From the IMG/VR virus record IMGVR_UViG_3300048072_000021, positions 1-41,604 of that record: a stretch of DNA of 41,604 nucleotides; one strand, 5' to 3'. Position numbers and translations under genes: made by a program. The notes beneath the pieces were generated by a model, which saw only the letters and a list, made by a program, of their open reading frames with translations, was not told where the DNA came from and did no database searches. The stretch comes from a virus. Lineage: Duplodnaviria; Caudoviricetes. Positions 128-40,217 of this stretch are shown here, one piece after another. Numbering within the stretch: position 1 is the first letter of the stretch; each line of letters begins with the position of its first letter.

Positions 128-219
128 TCCGCTATTCCAGGAGTAGAGTATCTCGGAACCGTTGACGCCCATCTCTTAGAAAACTAACCACCCACACCCA
201 CACAAAGGAAACCCACCCC

Positions 220-372
220 ATGAAAACCCTCATCTGGATCATTCTCGGCACCGCTATTCTGTTTTGCGCCCTCGCCATTGGCACCGGTCTCATGACCGCG
301 GGCGACCTCTTCCAAACCGCAGTCAACACCGCGAGCACCGCGGCAGAATTGACCGCCAACGTTATCAAATAG
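220..372 (+). CDS. small membrane protein, 50 aa (MKTLIWIILGTAILFCALAIG...)
   Basis: Not in ORF track; AAAGGA SD upstream, hydrophobic N-terminal helix, TAG at 370-372. Confidence 0.75.
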   Translation: MKTLIWIILGTAILFCALAIGTGLMTAGDLFQTAVNTASTAAELTANVIK

Positions 373-382
373 GATTGACACC

Positions 383-766
383 ATGCACACCACACACCCT
401 GAACCTCTCCATATTCTCACCTGTGGACATTTCCCTTCCCCGCACTCAGAATTCACCACGGGTTATGGTACTGACCGCGAAGGGCATACCCACTGTTATG
501 AGTGTATCGCGGAACTCGACCGCCAGGACATGATCGCCACCGGAAAAGCCACCCTGTATTTTGAAGAAAAGAAACACACCGTTACCAATTGGCCGGGAAG
601 TTTATCCTTCCCCCTGTACCCTCGTATTGCGAAATCCCGCCACAATTTTGGGATACCCCGCTATGATTATTGGTTCAAAGGGCCAGACGGTTATGTTTGG
701 CATGGTTACACCATTGGCGACATGACACAGATTGCCCACTGCCAACGCACACAGGAAACCCGCTAA
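383..766 (+). CDS. hypothetical early phage protein (CGH...CYEC, possible metal binding)
   Basis: 127-aa ORF, AGGA upstream, tiles with neighbours. Confidence 0.8.
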   Translation: MHTTHPEPLHILTCGHFPSPHSEFTTGYGTDREGHTHCYECIAELDRQDMIATGKATLYFEEKKHTVTNWPGSLSFPLYPRIAKSRHNFGIPRYDYWFKGPDGYVWHGYTIGDMTQIAHCQRTQETR

Positions 767-794
767 TCTAATCACCCTATAAGGACCCGCCCCC

Positions 795-1058
795 ATGAAC
801 GCACAAACTATCTACCACAAAACCGAAACCAAAAACTTTGAACCCTTGACCCTTGACGAGATGAAACAATTATCCGGTCATGTGTGGGGCATGATCGAAA
901 ACCCGCGCCACCCCAAATATGGACGCATGGCCCAAATGAAAGTGACTAGCGTCAAGACATGGAAGCGCCAACCCGCACGCGTGGAAGTACATTGTAAATA
1001 CGGGATGTATGAATACCTCACCTTTACGGAGAGTGAAACCCTTTACAAAGAAGTATAG
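795..1058 (+). CDS. hypothetical early protein
   Basis: TAAGGA SD; 87-aa ORF. Confidence 0.8.
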   Translation: MNAQTIYHKTETKNFEPLTLDEMKQLSGHVWGMIENPRHPKYGRMAQMKVTSVKTWKRQPARVEVHCKYGMYEYLTFTESETLYKEV

Positions 1059-1059
1059 C

Positions 1060-1121
1060 TATTCCTGCCCTCTCAAAGGATACATAACCTCGCGTTGTGT
1101 GTCCCCTAGAGTACAAGAATA
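1060..1121 (+). promoter_or_regulatory. long imperfect intergenic hairpin (possible RNA processing or stability element)
   Basis: tattcctg/caagaata, ctct/agag and ggatacataac/gttgtgtgtcc pair with G-U. Confidence 0.5.
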
Positions 1122-1149
1122 AACCACCCACATAAGGAGAACTCAGAAC

Positions 1150-1443
1150 ATGCAAACTACCGTCACCCTCGCACAATTACAAGATGAAAAATATACCTTC
1201 ATCCAATCGGACTCAGATCTGATCGCCGTCCTTGAATTTGTCGGCTTGCCCCCCACATGGGCCGAGCATATCTCAGGTGCCGTGGTCAAAATCTTAGATG
1301 GAGAATATGGACAAGTCTACTTGTCTGAATCCTCCGCCCCTTACGCCCTTGCCGCATGGTATCACCCCTTGCCCTACTACATGGACACCCACCGCGGCAA
1401 GCAATACCTCCCCGCCTACTGGCAAGAAGAAACGTACCCATGA
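1150..1443 (+). CDS. hypothetical early protein
   Basis: TAAGGAG SD; 97 aa. Confidence 0.8.
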   Translation: MQTTVTLAQLQDEKYTFIQSDSDLIAVLEFVGLPPTWAEHISGAVVKILDGEYGQVYLSESSAPYALAAWYHPLPYYMDTHRGKQYLPAYWQEETYP

Positions 1444-1616
1444 AACGCCCCAACAAATACACCTACCTGTTTATCGTTCAAGGATACTACATCAACCAAT
1501 GGGAAGATGTAGATCAATCCGAGAGCCAACGCGAAGCCCGCGCCAGCCTGAAAGCCTACCGCACCAACGACCCCAAACACGCGTACCGTATGATCTACCG
1601 TCGCGAATTGAACTAA
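1440..1616 (+). CDS. small hypothetical phage protein (MKRPNKYTYLFIVQGYY...WEDV)
   Basis: ATGA overlap with upstream stop; internal start of the 1356..1616 ORF. Confidence 0.75.
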   Translation: MKRPNKYTYLFIVQGYYINQWEDVDQSESQREARASLKAYRTNDPKHAYRMIYRRELN

Positions 1617-1646
1617 CCCACACCCACCCACAAAGGAGATTATCCC

Positions 1647-2039
1647 ATGACCCGCACCCTTGCCCCCGAACTACAAGAAATCTATAGCACCCTCATCAAC
1701 GAGGGCCACGAAGTCTATACCTATACCTTTGCAGGATACACCAACGACGCCGAAGAAATCCTGTGCCTGTGCTGGTACGAAGATGGACGCGTGCTCAATA
1801 TCCAACAATCCACTTGGTACAACGCCCGCTATGCCCGTAATTTATTCACCCTCAGCAATGACTACGTACCCTCACGAGAAAATGGATCGGGATGTCGCCT
1901 ATCCCCCGAAAATACAATGGGCACCCACCCCGCCGACCTCTTGACCTACCGTCACACCCCGACATGGGTACATACCGCCAAACAGTACCGCGATATGTCC
2001 CACTTTTTGAGACTCAATAAACATTACCATAAAATCTAA
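1647..2039 (+). CDS. hypothetical early protein
   Basis: AAAGGAG SD; 130 aa. Confidence 0.8.
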   Translation: MTRTLAPELQEIYSTLINEGHEVYTYTFAGYTNDAEEILCLCWYEDGRVLNIQQSTWYNARYARNLFTLSNDYVPSRENGSGCRLSPENTMGTHPADLLTYRHTPTWVHTAKQYRDMSHFLRLNKHYHKI

Positions 2040-2054
2040 AGGATACCCACCACC

Positions 2055-2363
2055 ATGAACACCCAAGATAAAATCTCCCAATTCGCAGAGCTTTTGCACA
2101 CCGAACAGGTAGCCACCTTGACCAGACGCTACCCCAACATCCCCGATCCTGATCACTATTGCCGAGTCACCGTCACCCCCGCGAAGAAGTATACCCGTGT
2201 AGATGTAGGATCATCCGGTAAATACATGGTCGAGAATGACACCGAAATCATTTATGGTATCAAAGCTTATGGTGTCATCCACCGCGGCCATTCATACGGC
2301 ACCCTTGACACGATCAACGACTGGAAATGGGGCGACTACATTGCCCACCGCAAACCCGCATAA
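2055..2363 (+). CDS. hypothetical phage protein (KKYTRVD...IYGIKAYG)
   Basis: AAAGGA SD; 102 aa. Confidence 0.8.
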   Translation: MNTQDKISQFAELLHTEQVATLTRRYPNIPDPDHYCRVTVTPAKKYTRVDVGSSGKYMVENDTEIIYGIKAYGVIHRGHSYGTLDTINDWKWGDYIAHRKPA

Positions 2364-2452
2364 CCCCGGCTTGCCCGCTCCCCCCGCCCCCCTTCCCCGG
2401 AAGGTGGGCGCACCGAGCAGACAAACCCCACCACACAAGGAGATACAAGACC

Positions 2453-2752
2453 ATGAGAACCCCATACGAAACCCACGCCAGCCACAAGCACCACGTCACC
2501 ACGCACAGCCCGAACGGAATCGATCTCATTGAAGAATGCACCGAATGCCCCGCGCGTTTCCTTGTTCACCACACCGAGCCAGAATTCCCGCGCCAGCTTG
2601 ACCCCTTACCCCCCGCAGAAACGCACCTCAACGGGTATAAAATCAGACGTAATTCATTTTGGACTACCTACCAGGTAAGCCATCCCGCCATTGGATCATG
2701 CGGAGAGTTTACCTTTTATCAAGACGCGATCAACTATTGCAAAGCAGGATAA
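2453..2752 (+). CDS. hypothetical early protein (CTEC)
   Basis: AAGGAG SD before internal ATG of the 2327..2752 ORF. Confidence 0.75.
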   Translation: MRTPYETHASHKHHVTTHSPNGIDLIEECTECPARFLVHHTEPEFPRQLDPLPPAETHLNGYKIRRNSFWTTYQVSHPAIGSCGEFTFYQDAINYCKAG

Positions 2753-2756
2753 CCCC

Positions 2757-2966
2757 ATGAAACGCCACGCCCACACACCCCGCCCCGTATCCATGTTTGC
2801 CGCAACCGCGCAAGACCTCCCGCTTTTTTCTCTCACCCCCATGCGCGCGCAAGAGTCAGTCTACCGCCCAACCCCCGCCACCCGCGCGCCCTCGTTGTTT
2901 GGGTGTGGGATATGCTATGGAACGGGGAGATATAACGGGAAAAAATGCCCGTGTACTTTGAAGTAA
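2757..2966 (+). CDS. small protein with DnaJ-type zinc knuckle (CGICYGTG...CPC)
   Basis: CxxCxGxG motif; AGGA SD. Confidence 0.65.
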   Translation: MKRHAHTPRPVSMFAATAQDLPLFSLTPMRAQESVYRPTPATRAPSLFGCGICYGTGRYNGKKCPCTLK

Positions 2967-2983
2967 AACAAAGGAGATACAAA

Positions 2984-3202
2984 GTGACTACCCCCACCCT
3001 TTACGCCCGACGCGTACCCGCAAATGACGAGATGAAATCCTCGTACCCCGCCGAACTCAACGACAAAGAAGATACCATCTTGACCCACGAATACGACAGC
3101 CCAGAGATTGCCCGCTTCCCGTGGAATAGACCCCTCCGCGTACTAGCCCCAGAAGTCACCATAAACGGCAGTCATTACCGCCTGATATGGAGAACGGACT
3201 AA
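2984..3202 (+). CDS. hypothetical early protein (GTG start)
   Basis: AAAGGAG SD 7 nt upstream of GTG. Confidence 0.7.
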   Translation: MTTPTLYARRVPANDEMKSSYPAELNDKEDTILTHEYDSPEIARFPWNRPLRVLAPEVTINGSHYRLIWRTD

Positions 3203-3275
3203 CCCCATCTACCCCCGGTCGTGTGCAGTACTTGCAACATGGCCGGATAAACTATCTTTATTTTAAGGAGAACCC

Positions 3276-3491
3276 ATGCCCACCCCCGACCTTGACCACC
3301 TCATGCACCACGCCGACCTGCCAAGCGAGACACAGACCGCCCTTGAACGTGCGTTCAATGCGCTCACTCAGGCTGAACGCACCCACGCGGCTACCCCCAC
3401 CCTTGAAACGGCCCAGGCGTTAGCCCAGGCTGAAAACCATTATCAGATCGCCCTCGCAAATAAGCGGGCGCTCTCACCCAAAGGAGCATGA
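3276..3491 (+). CDS. small helical protein
   Basis: TAAGGAG SD; 71 aa. Confidence 0.75.
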   Translation: MPTPDLDHLMHHADLPSETQTALERAFNALTQAERTHAATPTLETAQALAQAENHYQIALANKRALSPKGA

Positions 3492-3676
3492 ACATGCACC
3501 CTACCCCCGCCTACGGCATTCCCAACCTGGATGCCCGCATCAAGCAAGCCGAAGCCATGCTCGATATGGCCCGCGCCCTGGCTAAACGGGAGCCTACCCC
3601 CGAACACACCCACGCGGTCACGCGTTGGGAAATCCACTACAATGATTTGCTCGAAAAGAAAAAGGTGAACCCATGA
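3488..3676 (+). CDS. small helical protein, probable paralogue of 3276..3491
   Basis: AAGGAG SD, ATGA overlap; shared PTxE...ExHY...LxxK pattern. Confidence 0.7.
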   Translation: MNMHPTPAYGIPNLDARIKQAEAMLDMARALAKREPTPEHTHAVTRWEIHYNDLLEKKKVNP

Positions 3677-8297: not shown

Positions 8298-8534
8298 TTA
8301 CTCCTCGAACTTGGCGATGATCTCGTTCACCAGCGCGCTGGCGGTCCACTTGGGGGCGAACTCAGGTAATGGGGCGTTACGCTTCTCGATCAACGCCTTG
8401 ATCTTGCGCCGGTTCTCCGCCGTAATAGAGTAACCAGGGTTGCGCGCATCACTCTTGTCAGCACGCGGCAACATATGAGGGGGGAGGGGCGACTTACGTT
8501 CGTATTTTCGTTTGGGGTTTTCGTTGGTTTCCAT
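8298..8534 (-). CDS. small putative DNA-binding regulator (possible ribbon-helix-helix), probably leaderless
   Basis: YSITAENRRKIKAL...TASALVNEII; first gene of operon, ATG 7 nt from the -10 box, no SD in transcript. Confidence 0.55.
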   Translation of the reverse strand: METNENPKRKYERKSPLPPHMLPRADKSDARNPGYSITAENRRKIKALIEKRNAPLPEFAPKWTASALVNEIIAKFEE

Positions 8535-8623: not shown

Positions 8624-8653
8624 AGGGGTACATTCAAACAAAGGAGTACGAAA

Positions 8654-8950
8654 ATGAAAAACATGAACGCCAAACATACATTGTTATACGCCGAATCACA
8701 ACAGATTCCAGGCGGTAAAAACCTCGTCGCTCGAATTCGGGTTCACCGCTGGAAATGCGGGATGTTCGATGAAACCGTTATGCACGAAGAAGTGTATGAC
8801 GGGAGCAATGACTTCGCTGATAACGTCTACGAAAAGAAAACCATTCTTGGCGACATCGCAGACTACGGCGCGCAACGCATAGGGATGACCCGCTTCGATG
8901 GCCTGGTTGCGGAGTTCGGCGCACCCGACGACGACCTTTTCCCCTTCTGA
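8654..8950 (+). CDS. hypothetical protein
   Basis: AAAGGAG SD; first gene after promoter. Confidence 0.75.
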
Positions 8951-9017
8951 CTACCCAATCGCGAGGACCTCCGCATGGGGTCCTCGCATCCCAACTACCG
9001 CGACTATAAGGAGTAAC

Positions 9018-9713
9018 ATGAACAGCAAGAAAACCCGTGACGCCCTGATAGCTTTAGAGATTGAGGCTGACTGCTTACCGGACGATGAACAATGGAACCT
9101 GCGCGGAGCCGACCTGTACGAAGCCAACCTGCGCGGAGCCAACCTGTACGGAGCCGACCTGTACGGAGCCAACCTGCGCGGAGCCAACCTGCGCGAAGCC
9201 AACCTGCGCGAAGCCGACCTGCGCGAAGCCGACCTGCGCGGAGCCGACCTGCGCGAAGCCAACCTGCGCGGAGCCGACCTGTACGAAGCCAACCTGCGCG
9301 GAGCCAACCTGCGCGGAGCCAACCTGTACGGAGCCGACCTGTACGGAGCCAACCTGCGCGAAGCCGACCTGCGCGAAGCCGACCTGCGCGGAGCCGACCT
9401 GCGCGGAGCCGACCTGCGCGGAGCCGACCTGCGCGGAGCCAACCTGCGCGAAGCCGACCTGCGCGGAGCCAACCTGCGCGAAGCCGACCTGCCGTACTTC
9501 CACAAATGGGATATCACCTGGAATACCGATAACCTCATAAAGATCGGATGCAAGGAGAATACGGTTGCGGGATGGGATGAATGGTTTGCCGGAACCGAAA
9601 CCTATTCGACGGCACGCAACACCGAAGATTTTGAGCGCATCGAAGCCGGATACCAACACGCAAAGCGCATGGTTGAAATCTGGCAGAAATACAATCCCGA
9701 AGTGAAGGAGTAA
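9018..9713 (+). CDS. pentapeptide repeat protein with C-terminal IGC-motif domain (DUF5758-like)
   Basis: A(D/N)L(R/Y)(G/E) repeats; TAAGGAG SD; KIGCKE..V..W tail. Confidence 0.9.
9096..9491 (+). repeat. about 26 tandem 15-bp units RACCTG(CG/TA)CGRAGCC
   Basis: Direct reading of the sequence. Confidence 0.95.
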
Positions 9714-9716
9714 CCT

Positions 9717-9950
9717 ATGAACTACACCCCTCCTAATTGGACACACCCCGAAGATAAGTTAGTCGAGATCACCATCTCGGTAACAACTCAGCGCAAGGGC
9801 GTTTACGCTCCACGCGGGTTCGAGGCGCACGACTTTCTTATCGGAGAGGAAGATGCATATATCATCCAGAGCGCGCTTATCCCGATGCTCAAGAGCGCGA
9901 TCAATTCCCTGAACCAGCAAGAGGAAAAGAAGGAAGGCTCCGATGAGTGA
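9717..9950 (+). CDS. hypothetical protein
   Basis: AAGGAG SD. Confidence 0.7.
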   Translation: MNYTPPNWTHPEDKLVEITISVTTQRKGVYAPRGFEAHDFLIGEEDAYIIQSALIPMLKSAINSLNQQEEKKEGSDE

Positions 9951-10212
9951 CCCGATCCGCTTGACCCTCGCTGGATACGAACCTGACCCCGGTGAAAAAG
10001 AAGTGGACACCCTGATCACCATCGCCGGACGCCCGCCGAAGTTTGAGGCCACAAAGCAGGACGATTTCCACAGGAAAGCCGCGCGTTTCTATGAAGCCCA
10101 AGCGCAAGCCCTTTGTTCGGCGCTCACCAACAGTCTCCCAGGTGGCACCATCTACCAACTGACTATCAAACTTTTGGAGCATCGCACCAATATCTTACGC
10201 ATAAAGGAGTAA
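9943..10212 (+). CDS. hypothetical protein
   Basis: Overlap-coupled, 89 aa. Confidence 0.7.
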   Translation: MSDPIRLTLAGYEPDPGEKEVDTLITIAGRPPKFEATKQDDFHRKAARFYEAQAQALCSALTNSLPGGTIYQLTIKLLEHRTNILRIKE

Positions 10213-10214
10213 CT

Positions 10215-10688
10215 ATGAGTGACAACCCGAACGCCCTGGCAACCCTACTAGCGAACACGGTACGCGAAGGCGAGTGCATGGTATGGCAGGGAGACACCAA
10301 CGAGGGGTACGCATCCGACAATAAAGGGAGGTTGAGCCGCAGAGTGTACGCCCTAGCGCATGGTCGCGAACCGCTCCACAATGCGTGTCATACCTGCGAT
10401 AATCGAGCGTGTATCAATCCGGATCACATCTACGATGGGACACAAAAACAAAACATCCAAGACGCGATTGATCGGGGCCGTTTCAAATTCGTAGACCCTG
10501 AGACTATCCGGGGATCAGGGAACGGAAAAGCAACCCTTGCCGACGCTCAAGTGGCGGAGATACGCCGCCGATGGGCGGAAGGGAATGTCACACAACAGCA
10601 ACTCGCGGACGAGTATCATGTTTCGCGTTCGCATATTTCAAACCTGACCCGTCCCAATGGATTTCATTGGGGATGGGCTAAGCAATAG
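10215..10688 (+). CDS. HNH endonuclease with C-terminal HTH
   Basis: ECMVWQG...GY...CHTCDNRACINPDHI..GTQKQN..D; TQQQLADEYHVSRSHISNL. Confidence 0.92.
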   Translation: MSDNPNALATLLANTVREGECMVWQGDTNEGYASDNKGRLSRRVYALAHGREPLHNACHTCDNRACINPDHIYDGTQKQNIQDAIDRGRFKFVDPETIRGSGNGKATLADAQVAEIRRRWAEGNVTQQQLADEYHVSRSHISNLTRPNGFHWGWAKQ

Positions 10689-10696
10689 GAGTAACG

Positions 10697-11737
10697 ATGA
10701 CTGACCAAACAAAAGCCCTGGCAAAACCAGGGGAAGATAAGCTAAAGTCTTTTATGCGGAGCGACGCGATCATGACCCGCTTCCAAGAAATCTTGGGGGA
10801 CAGGGGCGCGCGCTCTTATGTGTCGTCTGTCCTCCTGGCAGTCGCAAACAACACCGCCTTGCAAGAATGTTCCCACGCTTCGATTGTCGCTTCTGCGCTT
10901 CGAGCCGCCACGCTTTCCCTCTCCTGCGATCCCGCTGTCGGTCAGGCGTACCTCGTACCCTACGGCAAGGTAGCGACCTTCGTGGTTGGATACAAAGGGC
11001 TGAGAGACATGGCACTGCGGACTAACAAGTATCGTTTCATCCACGTAGACAAGGTGTATCAAGGCGAGGGGGTGGACATTGATCGCATCACCGGATCAGC
11101 CAAGATGATCGGCGGCAAAGAGAGTGACACGATAGCCGGGTGGGTGGCGACGTTCGAGCTTTTCAACGGCTTCCGCAAAACTCTGTATATGACGCGCGAA
11201 GAAATCCATGCTCATGCCAAGCAATACAGCAAAGGGTATGAGCGGCAAGGCGGAGTATGGAAAGCGAACCCGGCGATGATGGAAAAGAAAACCGTTCTTC
11301 GCCAACTGCTCACCCATTGGGGCGTCCTGGATGCGCGTGATGAGTTGTTCATGAGTGCGGTAGATGGGGCAGAGGTGGAAGATTTGGGAACCATCGAGGC
11401 CACCTTTGTTCACGAAAAACCTGACCCGCGCGAGGATGTCTCCGAGTCGGACATCATGGAAGAATTGGGGTACGAAAATGTTTCACGTGGTGAATCCAAG
11501 AGAGAAATCGAATCGGGAACCCAAGAAACCCCGGCGATGACCTTGAAGATGGCCGAGAACGTGGTCAACGATAAGGGCGTGCGCTACATGGATATGCCTG
11601 ACGACGAACTCATCAAAGCGGTTCAGCATTTACAGCAATCCATCCGCACCACCACCGATACCGACCGGCGCGTCGAACAACAATTCCGCTTGAGCGCGGT
11701 CAATGCGATCCAACTCGCACGGAAGCCCACCGCCTAA
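10697..11737 (+). CDS. recT: RecT-family single-strand annealing protein
   Basis: LSCDPAVGQAYLVPY...FVVGYKGLRDMALR...W...MMEKKTVLRQLL. Confidence 0.92.
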   Translation: MTDQTKALAKPGEDKLKSFMRSDAIMTRFQEILGDRGARSYVSSVLLAVANNTALQECSHASIVASALRAATLSLSCDPAVGQAYLVPYGKVATFVVGYKGLRDMALRTNKYRFIHVDKVYQGEGVDIDRITGSAKMIGGKESDTIAGWVATFELFNGFRKTLYMTREEIHAHAKQYSKGYERQGGVWKANPAMMEKKTVLRQLLTHWGVLDARDELFMSAVDGAEVEDLGTIEATFVHEKPDPREDVSESDIMEELGYENVSRGESKREIESGTQETPAMTLKMAENVVNDKGVRYMDMPDDELIKAVQHLQQSIRTTTDTDRRVEQQFRLSAVNAIQLARKPTA

Positions 11738-11762
11738 CCCGATCCAATCAAAGGAGCATGAA

Positions 11763-12089
11763 ATGTATCTGAACCCAATCATCAACGAGCAGGTGATCCA
11801 CGACGCGTACGGGAACTTAGCCCAGGCGAAAGTATCCTACGCCGACGCGCTGGAGCGTTCCCTTACGATGGACGCCTTCCTCGAAAAACTCAAGGCCAAT
11901 GCCTTGAGCGACGGAACCGTCGTCGGCAAGAATGAGACGGAGCGCAAGGCCGCTCTCTCCACGCTCTTCGCGGCCCGCATTACAGAACTGGAAACCGCCG
12001 AACGCGAAACGCGTAGCGCGCGCGTCGAGGTTGAACTGGCTGAGATTGAAGTGAAGCGCGTCGAAACGCTCGTGCGCTGGTTGAAGTAA
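11763..12089 (+). CDS. hypothetical coiled-coil protein
   Basis: AAGGAG SD; GKNETERKA motif. Confidence 0.7.
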   Translation: MYLNPIINEQVIHDAYGNLAQAKVSYADALERSLTMDAFLEKLKANALSDGTVVGKNETERKAALSTLFAARITELETAERETRSARVEVELAEIEVKRVETLVRWLK

Positions 12090-12134
12090 CCCTACACCCT
12101 GAGCCGGGGCAGGTCATCCCCGGCAAAGAAGGAT

Positions 12135-12446
12135 ATGATGGCACCCACAGTTGCGGATACTTTTAGCAAAGAACATATGGCGAATCAACTTACTGGATTT
12201 CAAAATTACCTGAACAAGCAAGACGAGATGAGCCAAAACGAACGGGACACCTTGTGGCTCGTCGGGCGGGTCGCTTCCCTTTGGAGTGAAGATACCGTCT
12301 CCAATGGCCTGGCTAAAGCCCAGGAGGCCCGCGCCGAATATGATGAGTATTGCCGCGCAGAGGGAGATACGGAAACGCACATTCCCCCGTATGCGGCGCG
12401 CGGCAACACCCCTTACAGCCGCGACACCATTGACCTCTGCCCATGA
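12135..12446 (+). CDS. hypothetical protein
   Basis: AAGGA SD. Confidence 0.65.
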   Translation: MMAPTVADTFSKEHMANQLTGFQNYLNKQDEMSQNERDTLWLVGRVASLWSEDTVSNGLAKAQEARAEYDEYCRAEGDTETHIPPYAARGNTPYSRDTIDLCP

Positions 12447-12949
12447 ACACGTGTGAGAGTTGGAACGCCACCGCCTTCATTGCCGGTTCCATCGCGCTGT
12501 TTGGGGCCAGTGTGTTCCAGTTGTGGCGGCACCAGGAGCGGGCTAACCCGGTCGTGCGGGAAGTGAGGTACGCGTTGGACACCGCGCCCATGCCATACGC
12601 GGAAGGGACGACATTGGCGATCTCTAAGACCCGCGCCGGTGGCCCGCCGTACTTCACCTTCCCCCCGGAAGTCCAGCGCAAACAACTCGAAGCCCTGTAC
12701 GATGTGGTAGTCCGTGAGGGCAAGCCACCTCTTGAAAGGCACATGCTCCCCCGCCTGACCCGGACAGAACTCCGCGCGGTACGTGACCACTTCTATCAGG
12801 AGCAATGGGCCGAGTACCTGCGCAACGGCATGAACGCCCCCTGGAAACTGACCACCCAGGGTGAGCACAATCTAATTTACTTTTACATGCGCCTCAACGG
12901 GAAACTCCCGTATGAGGGGCATGTACACCAAAGGAGAATAAGCAGATGA
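12443..12949 (+). CDS. membrane-anchored hypothetical protein
   Basis: ATGA overlaps on both sides; N-terminal hydrophobic helix. Confidence 0.65.
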   Translation: MNTCESWNATAFIAGSIALFGASVFQLWRHQERANPVVREVRYALDTAPMPYAEGTTLAISKTRAGGPPYFTFPPEVQRKQLEALYDVVVREGKPPLERHMLPRLTRTELRAVRDHFYQEQWAEYLRNGMNAPWKLTTQGEHNLIYFYMRLNGKLPYEGHVHQRRISR

Positions 12950-13143
12950 GTACGACACACGAGCAAGACAAGGATTTATCGGAACTTGTTTTCGATAAGG
13001 TTGTTGGTAACTTACGTGCTCCGCTCTTGAACGCCGACTTTGTGGTCGAGTGGGTAGCCAAGAATCTTTCACCGGGGGACGTGTTCCCTTATGGGGACTT
13101 GGAAGATTGGGCACTCGCTAACGGCTTCATCGAGGACAACTAG
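12946..13143 (+). CDS. hypothetical protein
   Basis: AAAGGAG SD. Confidence 0.7.
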   Translation: MSTTHEQDKDLSELVFDKVVGNLRAPLLNADFVVEWVAKNLSPGDVFPYGDLEDWALANGFIEDN

Positions 13144-13227
13144 CCCTCCCCCTCCCAACCCCAAACATTTTACACGCGCGCGTGTTGCTAGAGTACGTGA
13201 GTGAGCGAGCGTGTGAGTGAGGACAAT

Positions 13228-13434
13228 ATGCGAATAAAATTCATTACCCGCGAACCCCGAAAGGGGGAGGCGATCCTGCTGACAGACGAAGGCCAGGAAG
13301 TTGAACGTATCCCATGCTTTGCACACACGGCGACGGGCAAGCTAGGGGCTATCCGCCACTTCGAGGATGTCCTGCTCAAGAGGGGGATGAGGGCGGATGA
13401 ATTGAAGTTCAAGTTCACGGAAGTGAAGGAATAG
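13228..13434 (+). CDS. hypothetical protein
   Basis: GAGGA SD before ATG 13228. Confidence 0.65.
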   Translation: MRIKFITREPRKGEAILLTDEGQEVERIPCFAHTATGKLGAIRHFEDVLLKRGMRADELKFKFTEVKE

Positions 13435-13436
13435 CG

Positions 13437-13697
13437 ATGGATAACGAACGCAAGAAGCTAACCCCTGAGGAAGCCATCGCCATGCTCCCTGACGACGAGA
13501 TGATCCACACCTTCCGCCAACCGTCACCATGGTATCCCGAACTCTTAGGATGCGACTGGACGCGTGAGGAGTTTGTCGAACTCATGCGGACGGGTGAACC
13601 TGAGTTGTCAGGGGAAGTGGCGACCGGCCTCGGGCACGGTCTTGCAGTGTTCGCCGGGGGCTGGATGTTTGTTGAGACACGCAAGAACAAGGAGTAG
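13437..13697 (+). CDS. hypothetical protein
   Basis: AAGGA SD. Confidence 0.75.
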   Translation: MDNERKKLTPEEAIAMLPDDEMIHTFRQPSPWYPELLGCDWTREEFVELMRTGEPELSGEVATGLGHGLAVFAGGWMFVETRKNKE

Positions 13698-13744
13698 GCA
13701 GGGATAATCCGTAACCGGAGTTACACGCCCCTTCCCGAAATGAT

Positions 13745-14131
13745 ATGTACGACTTTGGACAGATGAGACTATCCATGCAAGAACGCCACTCCAGCGGCGA
13801 AACTTACGAAAAGATCGCCGCCTCTTTCGAGAACGAAAGGATCACCCGCGCGCACGTGTGGAAGATGGTGAACAAGGGATGGGAGCCTGACGATCCCGAA
13901 CTACGGATCATTTTGGGACTCCCCGCTTATAAGCCGATGCCCGTCTGCCCTATTCATGGGGTGGTACACGAATACGATTGTCGCTCACAAGTCGTCAAGC
14001 CCCTACGCCAACCCTCGCCCCCACGTCCGCCCCGGATTTCGATCAGGAAGGATGACATGGGGAAGGCGGCGCGGAGCATCAAGAATAATCTCTCCCTCGC
14101 CCAGGTGCGGGAGTTGAAGGAGTTGTTATGA
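13745..14131 (+). CDS. putative HTH / zinc-binding regulator
   Basis: TYEKIAASF...ITRAHVWKMV (HTH-like); CPIHGVVHEYDC. Confidence 0.55.
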   Translation: MYDFGQMRLSMQERHSSGETYEKIAASFENERITRAHVWKMVNKGWEPDDPELRIILGLPAYKPMPVCPIHGVVHEYDCRSQVVKPLRQPSPPRPPRISIRKDDMGKAARSIKNNLSLAQVRELKELL

Positions 14132-14460
14132 AAGCTGAGTTTCGTCACGTACAAATAGAAGTCGGGCAACACGCAAGCGGTAACGTGTCCGACGCGAAAG
14201 TGAATGTGTACCGCTTTCCGCGCGGTAGTAGTCGCGGGCATCGCGCCTACCCCTTCACCGAGCGCAACTACTGGCGCGCGGTCGGGATGCAAATTGTGTT
14301 GGCGGGGTTCGCTTCGAGTGTACCGTCCATTGCGCGAGAGTGTACCCACGCAGAGAACCACGAGATGTATTTCGGAAATGGAGCGAACTACTGCCCGCAT
14401 TGTGGCACACGGATCGCGGCAGGGTGGGTGCGCGTGGACGATACAAAGGAGATGCTATGA
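14128..14460 (+). CDS. zinc-ribbon protein (NYCPHCG)
   Basis: AAGGAG SD; CT...CPHCG. Confidence 0.65.
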   Translation: MKAEFRHVQIEVGQHASGNVSDAKVNVYRFPRGSSRGHRAYPFTERNYWRAVGMQIVLAGFASSVPSIARECTHAENHEMYFGNGANYCPHCGTRIAAGWVRVDDTKEML

Positions 14461-14645
14461 TTACCCCACTACCTGAACCTGACTGGAAACTACTATTCTT
14501 CACCCTGGCCTTGAAGGTGAAGGAAATCAAGTATGATAAGGAGTACGTCTACAGTCGGATCGATGAGGCAGACAAAATTATCGAAGGTGTCTTATTGCGT
14601 CCTGATTGGTTTGATAGCGCCTTCGATGCGAAGGACGGTGAGTGA
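14457..14645 (+). CDS. hypothetical protein
   Basis: AAGGAG SD; ATGA overlap. Confidence 0.65.
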   Translation: MITPLPEPDWKLLFFTLALKVKEIKYDKEYVYSRIDEADKIIEGVLLRPDWFDSAFDAKDGE

Positions 14646-14896
14646 TGAATAGTTACCTTGCTATTCTTGCGGCCCTTTTGCTTCTCCTCGTCTGCATTGG
14701 TACTGTCTATCTGATTATTAGAAGTATCAAGGTGCGCCAGATTACCTACCCGGAGACGGGGGTAATCGTGGTGGGCAATAGTTCCGATATGGAAGTGGGA
14801 ACTGAGTTGATCATCGGAGGAGCAGAGCGCGTGCGCGTCGTCAAGGCGGATGGGAGTATATTGACTGTTGAATATATCGGAAAGGACGGTGAGTGA
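14642..14896 (+). CDS. membrane-anchored small beta-rich protein
   Basis: N-terminal TM helix; flanked by 18-bp direct repeats. Confidence 0.7.
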   Translation: MMNSYLAILAALLLLLVCIGTVYLIIRSIKVRQITYPETGVIVVGNSSDMEVGTELIIGGAERVRVVKADGSILTVEYIGKDGE

Positions 14897-15129
14897 TGAC
14901 CCCTATCAAATGCGAATACTGCGGCGCGAACAATGCCGGAGAGTTGGAGTGCGAGAAATGCGGCGCGCCCCTTCCGATCACGTACAATACGTGCTACCTG
15001 GAATGGGCCATCGGAGAGGCAGAGATGTTGCGACGAAGATATGGCCCACATTACAACGGCATTGAGACTGTCTCTAGCGGAAGCGGTTACAGAAGTGCTC
15101 GCAATGGGCTTGTAAGCTGGCGCTTGTGA
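14893..15129 (+). CDS. zinc-ribbon protein
   Basis: CEYCGA...CEKCGAPL. Confidence 0.7.
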   Translation: MMTPIKCEYCGANNAGELECEKCGAPLPITYNTCYLEWAIGEAEMLRRRYGPHYNGIETVSSGSGYRSARNGLVSWRL

Positions 15130-15130
15130 G

Positions 15131-15159
15131 TTGACACCCAACCGCGTTCACAGTAAACT
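15131..15159 (+). promoter_or_regulatory. sigma70-type promoter with no downstream ORF, bracketed by a 9-bp inverted repeat
   Basis: TTGACA-17-TAAACT; GAGTTGACA (15128-15136) / TGTCAACTC (15162-15170). Confidence 0.7.
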
Positions 15160-15165
15160 AATGTC

Positions 15166-15240
15166 AACTCGTGGCGTGGTAGTCATAGCCCTCCTTTGTT
15201 TAGAGAACCCCCGTATGGTGTGCGGGGGTTCTCGCTTTAT
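15166..15240 (+). ncRNA. candidate ~75-nt small RNA with anti-Shine-Dalgarno sequence
   Basis: Between promoter and terminator; contains GTCATAGCCCTCCTTTGTTT. Confidence 0.55.
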
Positions 15241-15242
15241 TT
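15203..15242. terminator. terminator hairpin at convergence of middle and late operons
   Basis: gagaacccccg-N9-cgggggttctc, 11-bp perfect stem, then gctttattt. Confidence 0.85.
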
Positions 15243-15638
15243 CCTACTGAATGTTTTGATGACATGCGCCCAGCACGCATCATACGTTTGGCAATCGGGG
15301 TTGGTCACGGTGATCGGTTCGTAAGCAAAGGTTTTGGTAGCGTCGTAAAGGCGCAGGCGCTCAACCTTATCGTTCTGGTTTTCCTCACCCGAGTGCCAGA
15401 TGCCACCGTCAATGAACACAAATGAAATCTTGGGGGTTGTAAAGACTCTAAAGTCTATCTCTAACGCCTTCCCCACAATCCACCATGCCGCCAGGTATTC
15501 ATACTCCCACCCCGCATTACTGAGGGCAATGGCGTACATGACTTCCCAACTACTCCCCGCCTCTTTCCCCTGTATCGCGTAACTCCCTTCCCCTAGTTGC
15601 ACGATCCCCTCAGGCAGATCACCCTCGTAATCTACCAT
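15237..15638 (-). CDS. DUF559/Vsr-like endonuclease-fold protein
   Basis: SSWE...AL...WEYEY...EIDF...FIDGGIWH...ND; TAATG coupling to tail gene. Confidence 0.6.
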   Translation of the reverse strand: MVDYEGDLPEGIVQLGEGSYAIQGKEAGSSWEVMYAIALSNAGWEYEYLAAWWIVGKALEIDFRVFTTPKISFVFIDGGIWHSGEENQNDKVERLRLYDATKTFAYEPITVTNPDCQTYDACWAHVIKTFSRK

Positions 15639-18600
15639 TAGAGGGTGATATCCATGAGTTGCCCCGTAATATAGTATTGCTCCGCATGGGGAACAGTTTC
15701 GAGCGCGGCAACTTTCGCGTTGAGTGAATTGAGGATCACCTTCCGGCTTGACCACGGCACGAGTAAGTCGGTCATCGTCAGGACTGTACCCGCATTGCGC
15801 CAGCTATCCAATTGTGCTAGTTCCACGCTGGCCTTGTGTATGGCCGGACGCAGTTCCAGGTCAGGCTTCTCGTCCCCCACCAAGGCGGAGATGTTGTACA
15901 CGTAGCTTGCCGGGTAGATGGTGATCCCCTTGACGAAGACCGCTTCCACAACGGTTTCTTCCTTGACGCCCCCATTGGCCCGCAGGCGGAGGCGGATTTG
16001 TAATCGCTTACCCGCGACATAGTTGGCGGCAAAGGTGACTTCTTGTACCGGGGAAGTGCTTACGTCCGTGCTGACCCGCGTCCAGGCGGTGCTATCATCC
16101 AGGCGGTAATAGACTGTGATCCAACGCGTCGAAGCGGAGAGGTTGCGCGTGACCAGCGTCACGGACACGAATACTTTTTGTAACCCTAAGGCTCCGTCCG
16201 AGAGATACCCCATGTCCAGGTAGCCGTCGTGAATGTAGGAGAAGTTACTATCCCCGTCTGTGTCCAGGTCACGAAGGGGGTCGCGCGTATAGGACGGAAG
16301 CGGCACCCATACCAGATGTGGCCCAACGTTGATCCATAGGTTATCGGACCTCAAACCAGGAACAACCTGCACCCGTAGGTCGGTAATAGGTAAGCCCACC
16401 GGCCCGCGATACAGTTCGTGTACCCCGGACCCGGCCCGGAGATACACGGCGGAAGTGAAAGCAGAGTCCCGCGCGCCCGCATTGACCGCGTAAATAACCT
16501 GATCCCCGGCGTAGGGGATAACGCAGGAGATGACGCCTTGCCGGTCGAAGGGTAGGCCGTCATCCAGATCGGGGCCAACACTTTCGAGCGAGCCATCGAA
16601 GTAACGCATGAGGCGCGGCCCCATATTGAAGTACAGGTACACCCCTGAGTGGGCGGCGGCGCGTCCGTTACTCTCGTCGGCCAGGGTTTCCATTGCCGTT
16701 ACCAGGACAGGCACACTCAAATCATTATTGAGCGTATCAATGCGGTGTAACCTCTGCGCGGCGAATAAAAGATAGGGTTGCAGAAGTTGATCGTTCTGCC
16801 CGTAGGTCACAATGTTACTGATCCTTTGGCCCCCGGTCGGATGTACGTCCGGGTAATCATTCATCAACTGCACGCCCCCGCGCATCTCAATGTTCATCGC
16901 CCCCAAGTCAGAGGCAAGCAGAAGATAAGCGTTACGGATGACGACTTCATCCGCCAGGTTACTCCCTGGTGTAATGTCGCTCGTCATCCACGTCCACACT
17001 CCCGCACTCAGGGCAGAGGTGATGCTGTATTGTTGCTCGTCCAGGTAAACAGACACCTCCGCCAGGAGGATGTCGTGCGTCAGGGTGGCGGAGAAAACGA
17101 AGTGAAGATAGTACGCGGCGATCCCGTTGAAAGTTTCTTGTTTCCAGTCCGTAGGGGTCGTGATCGTAATGGTGCCGGAAGCGGCGAGCGTGGCCCCACC
17201 CGAGGCGGTGCTATCGCTCGCGACGGTGCAGGCGACTAACTTCTCCCCGTTGTAGTAGTAGCACGCGACGGACGCGGCGTTCGCGTTGGCAACGCTTCCG
17301 ACCGTGATATTCACCCGGTCGAACCGTTCACTCTTGCCTACGACTAAGGCGTCGTTTTGCTGAAACGCAAAAGCCTCATCTGTCAGGTCGCGCCCATCCC
17401 GTCCCCCAAGCGCGGCGCGGTGGGTGTAGGCCTCGGTATCAATGACTGCAATCTCAGCCAGGGCGGTGGTCGAGAGTAAGGTGCCAGAACATTTCAGGCG
17501 CATGGCGTAGCCGGTCACGGAGTTGGCGGTGTACTCCGCCCAATCCCCCGGCATATTGAAGCTGATCGTTTGTTTGCCAATCACCCCGAAGGGGGTATTC
17601 ACCACGCCCCCAAAGTTTCCGGTGATAGTATGGCTAACAAACTCCTCTCCATTGAAATACTCCGCCGTGAGGGTGAGCGGGGTGGTGGTGTTGGCGACCG
17701 TGATGTTAGCTTGGATGGTGTTGTACTTGGCGTCACTGATCACCACGAGATCGTTAATCGTAGTGAGCGGAATGGTATCGGTGCTGTCATCCAGGCCATC
17801 GAATAACTTGGGCACAGAGGTATGCACTCCCGTACTTGGCACCATCGTGCTCACGCTAGTTGCGACGCGGTAGTTATCGAGAGTGGTGTGATACACGTAA
17901 TCCGCGATTAGCTCCTGTTGTTGAGCATACGTGCGATTGGAGAGCCGCAAGCGCAAATCGCCTGACGAGCAGGCAACATCCGACTTGATCAGGACGCCCA
18001 CCTTGCGCCCACTCGCGATATTCAACGGGGTTTCCAGATCATGTGCGGCAATCGTGCCGGTTATAAACCCACCCGCGACGGCGACTTTCGTCCCGAACTC
18101 ACCCACGGACTGCGTACAGTTGGTGATAACCCCCGCTTGCCAGGGTGTATCCGTAGGAGCGATCTCCCCAAGCGGGTTGTACAAATCCCCCCACGCAGGG
18201 GGAACCGCGAACTTGTAATACACAGAGCCGAGCGCGTGACCGTTGTTGTACCCGTACAGGTATTGGCGCGGGTAAGTGGGATCGGGGACCAGAGTTGCGC
18301 CAGTCATACGGGCGACACTCTCTTGCGCGGTGACATCCGTCCAAACCCCCGCATTGTTATAGGAACGCACGCGATACATCGCCGCGTTACTCGCAAACAA
18401 AATATAAAACCACTCCCCGGCGTCAATCGCCCCGGTGGGGTGCGCGAAAAAGGCGGTGAGCAGGGTCCAGTAGTTCACCCCCAAAACCACGTACTCCGTG
18501 TTGGTGCTATGGGTCATCAACCAGGGCGTATCCACGTTGATCACGGAGCCACTCGCGGAAGTGATGGCGCGCCAGGGCTTTTCTTCTTCGCTCCCTGGCC

Positions 18601-39652: not shown

Positions 39653-39984
39653 GCGAGAAAGGCTTCCCAGGTGAAACTTACAGTCGCGTCCGGCGTCCCC
39701 ATGACCGCGAGAGAGGCCACTGAATAATCTAGGCCGTTCGCCTCAAAGCGCGCCACGTTGAGCGAGCCTTGTCCAGTAGGGCAGGCGAAGAAGAAAGGCT
39801 CCGTTCCAGCGGGATACGGGATAGGGTAGATAACTTCGAGGATGCCGTAGCCCTCGGGCGAGAGTTGCCCGGACACCTTGCCCATTTGCTTCGCGGGCGT
39901 CTTGGGTTTTCCAGGGCCAGGGGTGCCGAAGATAAACAGAGAGGGAATGAGTTGAAAGAGGGAGAGGAACTTACGGCGGGTCAT
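39649..39984 (-). CDS. protein with twin-arginine-like N-terminus (MTRRKFL)
   Basis: AGGA SD; ATGA overlaps. Confidence 0.65.
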   Translation of the reverse strand: MTRRKFLSLFQLIPSLFIFGTPGPGKPKTPAKQMGKVSGQLSPEGYGILEVIYPIPYPAGTEPFFFACPTGQGSLNVARFEANGLDYSVASLAVMGTPDATVSFTWEAFLA

Positions 39985-40217
39985 GATTCGTTCCTGGCAA
40001 TCGCGGCGTTGGCCCACATCGCGGCGGTTTCGAGTTCAGTCAAGGCGACTGAGAGTTCACGCGACGGGGGACAGGAGGCGGTCAGGAGTTCCGCGAGTTC
40101 TTTCGCTTTTGCGCGGATGGCCTCGTAACGCTCAGGCTGTCCAGGCTTCGGGGCGTGGTAGGTGAAATTCTTGGCGAGTTTGTTTCGGTCAACTTCGGAA
40201 GGGGTATACATAGTCAT
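39981..40217 (-). CDS. Acb2/Tad1-like hairpin protein (putative immune-signal sponge)
   Basis: FTYHAP...RYEAIR...CPPSRELSVALTELETAAMWANAAIAR. Confidence 0.7.
   Translation of the reverse strand: MTMYTPSEVDRNKLAKNFTYHAPKPGQPERYEAIRAKAKELAELLTASCPPSRELSVALTELETAAMWANAAIARNES

What the first reader, a model, noticed from the sequence alone, without database searches (positions are those of the whole stretch)
15128..15242. Stand-alone small RNA with an anti-SD complementary to the RBS of early and operon-leading genes
Seen: TTGACA-17-TAAACT fires into about 75 nt with no sense ORF, ending in an 11-bp hairpin. The region before the hairpin, GGTAGTCATAGCCCTCCTTTGTTT, is the reverse complement of AAACAAAGGAG-ggcta-TGACTACC. 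The early gene at 2984 reads AAACAAAGGAG-atacaaag-TGACTACC (11-nt plus 8-nt match over SD and start codon). AAACAAAGGAG also precedes the first middle gene (8636-8646), AACAAAGGA the first early gene (41396), and ACAAAGGA(G) occurs at about 202, 1629 and 12927. The promoter is bracketed by a perfect inverted repeat GAGTTGACA/TGTCAACTC, resembling an operator. Inference: a regulated trans-acting sRNA that shuts off translation of several early genes, possibly substituting for the unrecognised repressor.
Basis: partly seen in the sequence, partly recalled or inferred. Interest (0 to 1): 0.72.

Follow-up and report, generated by a model that had tools for sequence, protein, structure and literature searches.

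The report
Conserved phage anti-ribosome-site small RNA
An uncultured bioreactor phage carries a promoter-to-terminator unit, kept almost unchanged in a diverged sister strain, that likely makes a 75-base RNA predicted to cover the ribosome-binding sites of the phage's own early and middle genes and so would act as an RNA brake on them; no transcript or target has been observed.

Summary
The unit is there: one of four TTGACA-17 promoters of this circular 41.5-kb phage, 37 unpaired-rich bases complementary to a translation start, and an 11-bp terminator at the convergent middle/late junction. A sister strain (19% third-position divergence next door) shows no listed change over 15186-15252 and keeps TTGACA in an otherwise unalignable spacer, so promoter, anti-SD and hairpin look selected. 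Gene 2984 ranks second or third; 8654 and 41413 pair by the SD only. Late genes escape (0 of 24 below -8 kcal/mol). But 7 of 65 ordinary starts of this phage, reversed, pair as well, so target choice is unproven. The operator idea fails: the repeat is common and its left arm is not conserved. The layout recurs in unrelated phages: 16 of 95 promoter+anti-SD sites end in a terminator against 2 of 80 controls (p=0.002); none tested is in Rfam. It works like streptococcal csRNAs and P1 c4 but is neither. No transcript was seen. This scan noted similar units before on other DNA.

The parts
15131..15159 (+). sigma70-type promoter, TTGACA-17-TAAACT
   Evidence: TTGACA kept in the sister strain, 18 nt before the aligned -10 position, within unalignable sequence (loose ends of X18 and X22)
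15166..15242 (+). predicted small RNA, about 75-77 nt (start inferred 7 nt behind the -10 box)
   Evidence: inferred from promoter and terminator; no transcript seen
15178..15186 (+). anti-start-codon tract (GGUAGUCAU), about half unpaired
   Evidence: sequence; unpaired probability 0.55; its conservation in the sister strain is not readable
15190..15201 (+). anti-Shine-Dalgarno tract (CCUCCUUUGUUU), single-stranded
   Evidence: unpaired probability 0.83; no listed difference in X18 or X22
15203..15242 (+). intrinsic terminator hairpin and U-rich tail; also closes the middle operon 8654-15129
   Evidence: no listed difference in X18, X22 (whole hairpin) or X24 (from 15222)
15128..15170 (.). 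9-bp inverted repeat (arms 15128-15136 and 15162-15170), probably incidental
   Evidence: left arm differs outside TTGACA in the sister strain
15148..15186 (-). 12-codon ORF MTTTPRVDISLL behind a strong SD on the opposite strand; probably not a gene
   Evidence: the in-frame 131-codon continuation has no Pfam or PHROG match
14443..14467 (+). best predicted target: start region of the 62-codon gene 14457-14645 (unknown function)
   Evidence: duplex -36.6 kcal/mol; net -15.9 with accessibility
2966..2992 (+). predicted target: start region of the 72-codon early gene 2984-3202 (unknown function)
   Evidence: -33.8 kcal/mol; net -15.0
10675..10710 (+). predicted target: start region of the RecT gene 10697-11737
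   Evidence: net -15.1 kcal/mol, 2nd of 65 with accessibility; 10th without; RecT
8636..8646 (+). 11-nt SD match of the first middle gene 8654 (SD only, weak predicted target)
   Evidence: -19.5 kcal/mol; net -8.0
15237..15638 (-). last late gene (133 aa), convergent on the unit; gives the divergence yardstick
   Evidence: 9 homologues at 59-83% identity; 24 of 29 listed differences at third codon positions

Best explanation
The unit likely makes a 75-base small RNA from a host sigma70-type promoter, and its single-stranded anti-SD tract is predicted to pair in trans with the ribosome-binding sites of the phage's own early, replication and middle mRNAs, which would damp their translation while late mRNAs escape. 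Shown: the anatomy, the complementarity, and conservation of -35 box, anti-SD and hairpin in a diverged strain. Inferred: transcription, pairing, repression. The core UCCUUUG would be the seed, reading the AAAGGAG dialect of non-late genes; the anti-AUG tract would add strength on starts such as 14457, 10697 and 2984. With no conserved operator the promoter is probably unregulated, so the RNA would build up with time and genome copy number and act as a slow brake as infection moves to late genes, or hold these genes down in a carrier state. It probably arose from a phage gene start read backwards by an antisense promoter.
For: Selection: a sister strain in two wastewater studies (X18, X22; same differences, so one comparison) aligns from 15152 to 15728 with 38 differences, none listed before 15253; third-position divergence of the next gene is 24 of 128 (19%), so 0 changes in the 51 non-coding bases 15186-15236 has P = 2.5e-5, and at most 3 in 15152-15236 has P = 3e-5. 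Upstream of 15152 the strain is unalignable yet has TTGACA at promoter spacing; a mere operon terminator would not need that. A third variant (X24) has 0 of its 8 differences in 15222-15266. Exposure: anti-SD 0.83 unpaired. Direction of targets: 41 non-late starts pair better than 24 late ones (p = 1.6e-4; p = 0.003 with accessibility); the top 12 of 65 are all non-late, and 9 of 41 non-late but 0 of 24 late fall below -8 kcal/mol. The match exceeds SD+AUG alone: 0 of 400, 0 of 400 and 1 of 400 shuffles with those motifs fixed reach -36.6. Its three best own-genome starts beat those of other phages (p = 0.005). Class: of unique viral sites with a strong promoter, CAT and CTCCTT, 16 of 95 have a terminator within 25 nt against 2 of 80 with a scrambled anti-SD (Fisher p = 0.002); their opposite-strand ORFs are random-sized (median 9 codons, 15 of 16 under 30), so the units are non-coding. 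A distant relative sharing RecT (50%) and tail genes has such a unit beside its integrase (L474:6068). Precedent: csRNAs carry unpaired anti-SD and anti-AUG tracts and repress at the start region (PMC3091779, PMC4507080, passages).
Against: Target choice is not distinguished from 'it looks like any strong start of this phage': 7 of 65 real starts, reversed, pair as well with another start, 3 of 18 among AAGGAG starts; by best single target, own genome is not significantly better than other phages (p = 0.11). The late/non-late gap partly just mirrors SD strength. In X22 a contig leaves the window at 14450 into another gene start, so the best target may be absent where the RNA is kept (that both contigs are one strain is not shown). 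The anti-SD stretch alone (17 nt unchanged) has only P = 0.03; the hairpin is needed anyway as operon terminator; about 3 unlisted differences probably lie in 15152-15185 and could hit the anti-AUG tract; against all positions of the neighbour, 3 of 101 versus 35 of 476 is not significant (p = 0.12); a recent 100-bp exchange could mimic conservation. In the class, CAT adds nothing significant (16 of 95 versus 9 of 75 with TAC, p = 0.51), and only 10 of 28 units prefer their own genome's starts (6 of 28 by best target; 8 of 28 have p >= 0.79; three of the positives are kin). 0 of 26 capsid-related records hold the strict pattern. No covariation between RNA and a target could be read.
Confidence: 0.5

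Rival explanations
1. The RNA is real but aimed at host mRNAs, or at strong SD sequences in general, as a mimic of the 16S rRNA 3' tail; the match to phage starts is a by-product of a shared SD dialect.
For: The anti-SD, not the anti-AUG, is the enriched feature of the class; 8 of 28 class members show no preference for their own genome; the best phage target may be missing in a sister strain that keeps the RNA. CCUCCUUU resembles the bacterial 16S tail (recalled).
Against: The match to phage starts goes beyond SD and AUG; its top three own-genome starts beat other phages' (p = 0.005). The host is unknown, so host 5' UTRs could not be ranked.
Confidence: 0.18
2. Cis-antisense unit of the Sar / RNA-OUT type: the RNA only silences the SD and ATG on the opposite strand (12-codon ORF, or the stump of a lost gene) on late transcripts that read through the hairpin, which has no U tail in that direction.
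For: Perfect SD and ATG on the minus strand with a 4-nt spacer, as at gene 9018; the element pairs no better than real starts of this phage; a distant relative has promoter, anti-SD and hairpin over the start of a real 197-aa late gene (L049:13256).
Against: The ORF has 12 codons and no hydrophobic segment; its last codons lie in the promoter spacer that is unalignable in the sister strain, so the peptide's end is not kept; no family match for the continuation; in the class the opposite ORFs are random-sized.
Confidence: 0.17
3. Only the terminator (end of the middle operon) and perhaps the promoter (transcriptional interference with oncoming late transcription) matter; the anti-SD is a relic of a deleted gene start and does not pair with anything.
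For: The hairpin explains most of the invariant bases; 17 unchanged linker bases have P = 0.03 only; this phage shuffles genes at SD-containing junction repeats (14631, 14882), which leaves such relics.
Against: Anti-SD directly before a terminator behind a strong promoter is about 7-fold enriched over a scrambled control across unrelated phages; the -35 box is kept while the spacer is not.
Confidence: 0.15

Closest known systems
csRNAs (cia-dependent small RNAs) of Streptococcus
   Same: Short RNA from a strong promoter; unpaired anti-SD and anti-AUG tract before a terminator hairpin; a one-hairpin 60-nt form (csRNA9) lies on plasmid pST0; repression by pairing around SD and AUG of several targets (PMC3091779 and PMC4507080, passages).
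   Different: csRNAs are chromosomal or plasmid members of the CiaR regulon and act on host genes such as comC; this unit is in a phage, has a plain sigma70-type promoter, no Rfam match, and its predicted targets are phage genes.
c4 antisense RNA of phages P1 and P7
   Same: Phage-coded 77-nt RNA acting in trans on a phage ribosome-binding site (PMC12197685, passages).
   Different: c4 acts on the antirepressor mRNA through loop elements and defines immunity; here there is no recognised antirepressor, the seed is a linear tract, several starts are predicted, and there is no Rfam match.
P22 sar RNA (and IS10 RNA-OUT, recalled)
   Same: 68-69 nt RNA that blocks translation initiation of a phage gene by pairing (PMC12197685, passages); promoter facing a start region on the opposite strand (recalled).
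   Different: Sar overlaps a real target mRNA; here the opposite strand holds only a 12-codon ORF.
C-rich SD-binding sRNAs of Gram-positive bacteria (RsaE/RoxS, LhrC; recalled, LhrC paper seen as listing only)
   Same: Unpaired pyrimidine motif complementary to SD sequences, many targets.
   Different: Host-coded, usually several motifs in loops; no phage-dialect match.

Membership tests
csRNA | [quoted passage not shown] | tested here: met
   (anti-SD 0.83, anti-AUG 0.55 unpaired); feature from PMC3091779 passages
csRNA | Sequence family match | tested here: not met
   no Rfam family at gathering score in 14000-16500; 7 weak rows to E 10, none a csRNA
csRNA | CiaR-dependent promoter in a streptococcal host | not testable with these tools
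   host unknown; CiaR box not searched
P1/P7 c4 RNA | Match to the c4 RNA family | tested here: not met
   no such row in the Rfam scan to E 10
P1/P7 c4 RNA | Target is an antirepressor mRNA | tested here: inconclusive
   no antirepressor among 70 ORFs in PHROGs or Pfam, but most ORFs are unassigned; predicted targets 14457 and 2984 have no family
Cis-antisense RNA (Sar / RNA-OUT type) | A real gene starts on the opposite strand | tested here: not met
   12-codon ORF whose end lies in the non-conserved spacer; continuation without family
Type I toxin-antitoxin antitoxin | Cognate small hydrophobic toxin gene overlapped or paired (feature recalled) | tested here: inconclusive
   the 12-aa peptide has no membrane segment; 14457 and 2984 products have no family and were not assayed
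Trans-acting base-pairing sRNA (general) | Transcript exists and represses a target by pairing | not testable with these tools
   only assembled contigs of RNA runs were available; they cannot show a 75-nt RNA, its strand or ends

The most novel reading that the evidence does not exclude
This is one member of a widespread, undescribed class of phage sRNA genes (strong promoter, free anti-SD tract, terminator) that read the SD dialect of a whole temporal class of the phage's own genes and switch it off, giving phages a protein-free early-to-late or carrier-state timer.
Probability: 0.35. Interest if true: 0.75.

Novelty: new variant of a known kind. Interest (0 to 1): 0.53.

Why it matters
Known phage antisense RNAs such as sar and c4 each control one antirepressor. 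An RNA that reads a shared ribosome-site dialect would switch off a gene class after transcription, with no protein. The layout recurs in unrelated phages at about seven times the control rate and the tested units are missing from Rfam, so a common control layer may be unannotated. A 75-nt gene with named targets is cheap to test with reporter fusions.

Tried and rejected
Expression: five metatranscriptome runs laid as contigs. X7 has pieces 14250-15045 and 15234-15384, none across the unit; X10 and X16 have no depth in 14675-15341, X8 and X14 have 3.05 and 1.89 there but their pieces were among 75 not shown. Contigs cannot show so short an RNA: no evidence either way. X18, X22 and X24 have no cover over 14451-15151, which alone proves nothing. 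Close relatives with flanks: none in GenBank phages, IMG/VR by capsid, RecT or the exact tract, or JGI by the neighbour gene (85 pattern hits, 0 confirmed). JGI pattern scan gave 61 loci, 51 distinct, none homologous; about half are one gut-phage family with a like layout. Capsid-related phages (39-56% identity): no sequence match, 0 of 26 with the strict pattern; a looser scan of 57 sequences (929 kb) gave 16 promoter-terminator units, 5 with an anti-SD motif including this one. Operator: rejected. Minus-strand promoter from the second TTGACA: its -10 position reads CGGTTG and the scan lists no such site. Read-through of the 12-codon ORF into the 131-codon frame: no family, antisense to two genes. 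Repressor hunt: 8298-8534 looks like strand-helix-helix by eye, but Pfam gave only HTH_32 at E 0.04, one homologue, and no fold match. Host: seven MAG contigs from six different taxon labels, unusable. Protein atlas gave nothing usable for 2984 and 8654. Literature: searches listed no description of such a phage class; the library lacks most subscription papers, and Supplementary Table S1 of PMC12197685 (38 phage sRNAs without function) was not opened and may bear on novelty. Rfam was run on 19 of the real-pattern loci and 13 further loci, not on all.

Full report
Setting. The window is a complete circular phage genome: 41478-41604 repeats 1-127. Family scans of 70 ORFs place terminase, capsid, endolysin and an Acb2/Tad1-like gene on the minus strand (late), DnaB and an initiator in a leftward replication operon, RecT and an HNH gene in a rightward middle operon (8654-15129), and small unknown early genes from 41413 to 4110; no integrase or repressor was recognised. 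The names early, middle and late are my inference from layout. The DNA is held by bioreactor metagenomes, four of which may be its source. The host is unknown. The finding lies where the middle operon meets the end of the late operon head-on.

Observation. The promoter TTGACA-17-TAAACT (15131-15159) is one of four sites with a perfect -35 and 17-nt spacer; the other three head the early, replication and middle operons. The hairpin 15203-15233 has 11 Watson-Crick pairs and folds with z = -3.7. Between them lies the reverse complement of a phage-type start. The 11-mer AAACAAAGGAG occurs 3 times against 0.03 expected. The inverted repeat is there, but perfect 9-bp repeats with 11-40 nt spacers occur at 14 places in the window (21 rows).

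Targets. I folded the 37-nt 5' part against 65 hand-chosen starts. With accessibility the order is 14457 (-15.9), RecT 10697 (-15.1), 2984 (-15.0), 12946 (-14.2), then a gap; 8654 is 8th, 41413 12th, 220 54th. The top 12 are non-late; 9 of 41 non-late and 0 of 24 late starts fall below -8 (p = 0.003). In a genome-wide scan of 8,328 windows two sites outside start regions scored better than 14457 on raw duplex energy, so raw energy alone is not specific. Two nulls disagree in a telling way. With SD and AUG complements fixed and the rest shuffled, 0, 0 and 1 of 400 shuffles reach the observed best: the tract resembles this phage's starts beyond the SD. But 7 of 65 real starts, reversed, do as well (3 of 18 AAGGAG starts). 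So the tract is as good as a typical strong start read backwards. That fits an origin from a captured start and does not prove chosen targets.

Conservation. Contigs of three wastewater or sludge runs were laid on 14250-15750. X18 and X22 carry the same sister strain: aligned 15152-15728 (38 differences) and 15152-15687 (33). The first listed difference is at 15253. Differences near alignment ends are not listed; bookkeeping leaves about 3 for 15152-15185 (my inference). In the neighbouring gene 24 of 29 listed differences are at third positions, 24 of 128 such sites. At that rate 0 changes in 51 non-coding bases has P = 2.5e-5, at most 3 in 85 has P = 3e-5, and the 17-nt linker alone has P = 0.03. 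Against all positions of the neighbour the contrast is not significant (p = 0.12). Before 15152 both contigs run into unlike sequence that still holds TTGACA 16 bases upstream of 15152, an 18-nt spacer if the -10 box is unchanged; the three bases before TTGACA differ from the window's, so the left arm of the repeat is not kept (a compensating change in the right arm cannot be excluded). X24 covers 15222-15434 with all 8 differences from 15267 on. An X22 contig leaves at 14450 into another gene start, so gene 14457 may be absent in that strain. This is one independent comparison plus a partial second.

Class. No homologue was found with flanks, and capsid-related phages do not keep the unit (0 of 26). 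I therefore scanned IMG/VR for the layout: strong promoter, CAT, CTCCTT (119 stretches from 28 of 64 parts, about 280 in all), with a scrambled anti-SD (119 from 56 parts, about 140) and with TAC for CAT (120 from 43 parts, about 180). Pooling all loci of the three scans, dropping matches with under 90 bases of flank and collapsing near-duplicates (136 to 95, 125 to 80, 134 to 75), a terminator starts within 25 nt in 16 of 95, 2 of 80 (p = 0.002) and 9 of 75 (p = 0.51). The anti-SD is the enriched feature; the anti-AUG is not shown to be. Opposite-strand ORFs of the 16 have a median of 9 codons, while 40 of the 79 without terminator have 30 or more, being real gene starts. Rfam has no family for the 32 loci tested. 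For 27 analogues and this unit I compared automatically called starts of the own record with those of the others (1,129 starts): own is better in 6 of 28 by best target and 10 of 28 by top three; 8 show none; three positives are kin and one overlaps a real gene. This unit gives p = 0.11 and 0.005. One analogue lies in a relative sharing RecT and tail genes, beside its integrase.

Expression. Five RNA runs exist only as contigs and cannot show a 75-nt RNA. Nothing is shown either way.

Mechanism. Shown: anatomy, complementarity, exposure in the predicted fold, conservation. Inferred: an unregulated sigma70-type promoter makes a terminator-capped RNA that accumulates; its seed covers AAAGGAG sites of non-late mRNAs, strongest where the anti-AUG tract also fits; late starts, mostly with weaker SDs, escape. 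I give this 0.5, host-directed or generic SD mimicry 0.18, cis-antisense to the minus-strand start 0.17, terminator plus relic 0.15.

Known systems. It works like streptococcal csRNAs (PMC3091779 and PMC4507080, passages only) and like c4 and sar (PMC12197685, first sixth of the text and passages). It matches no Rfam family and has no real gene on the opposite strand, so I file it under none. StxS (PMC7547250) was seen as listing and abstract start only. RNA-OUT, RsaE/RoxS and the 16S tail are recalled. Searches listed no paper on such a phage class; that library is incomplete. Earlier notes of this scan describe eight similar units in other genomes; none on this genome or with like sequence. 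They are unchecked and I do not count them as support.

Verdict. New variant of a known kind; interest 0.53.

Noticed in passing
window 8642-8990: In three of four RNA runs the region of the first middle gene stands out (pieces 8643-8951 and 8642-8950 at depth 49-50, others listed 2-12), with adapter-joined ends at 8950/8951; an 11-pair hairpin without U tail follows at about 8961-8987. Weak hint of a short abundant transcript; contigs cannot rank genes. The 98-aa product is unassigned.
   Followed up: partly
window 14631-14647 and 14882-14898; X22 loose end behind 14450: Identical junction motif AAGGACGGTGAGTGATG joins successive middle genes (each upstream protein ends KDGE); a sister strain switches to another gene at such a junction, suggesting cassette exchange at SD repeats.
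   Followed up: partly
window 39981-40217 (-): Acb2/Tad1-like hairpin-domain gene (PF24729, E 3.9e-23), a likely anti-defence sponge, at the head of the late region.
   Followed up: no
window 8298-8534 (-): Nearly leaderless first gene of the replication operon, two helices after a YSIT stretch; ribbon-helix-helix repressor by eye, not confirmed.
   Followed up: yes
L047:10151-10340 and L049:1421-1600: Two capsid-related phages have a short promoter-terminator unit between a recombinase-like or repressor-like gene (by eye) and the late genes, with a 5' hairpin and a sense SD before a tiny ORF, followed by a second shared motif (GAGCCAAGAG..GGGAGT); possibly a conserved ncRNA or type I toxin-antitoxin locus.
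   Followed up: no
L333, L335, L346 and about 30 of L494-L554: A gut-phage family keeps a unit with 5' hairpin, GCCCTCCTTTGG tract and terminator; its best own target is the start of a 393-aa gene in all three records tested; not in Rfam.
   Followed up: partly
L104, L107, L109, L151, L161: Several anti-SD units lie within 3 kb of tRNA arrays, one also near a ROOL RNA.
   Followed up: no
window 180-3500: Early genes have C/A-rich, nearly G-free leaders before their SD (for example CCCACAC at 191, 1617, 2770).
   Followed up: no
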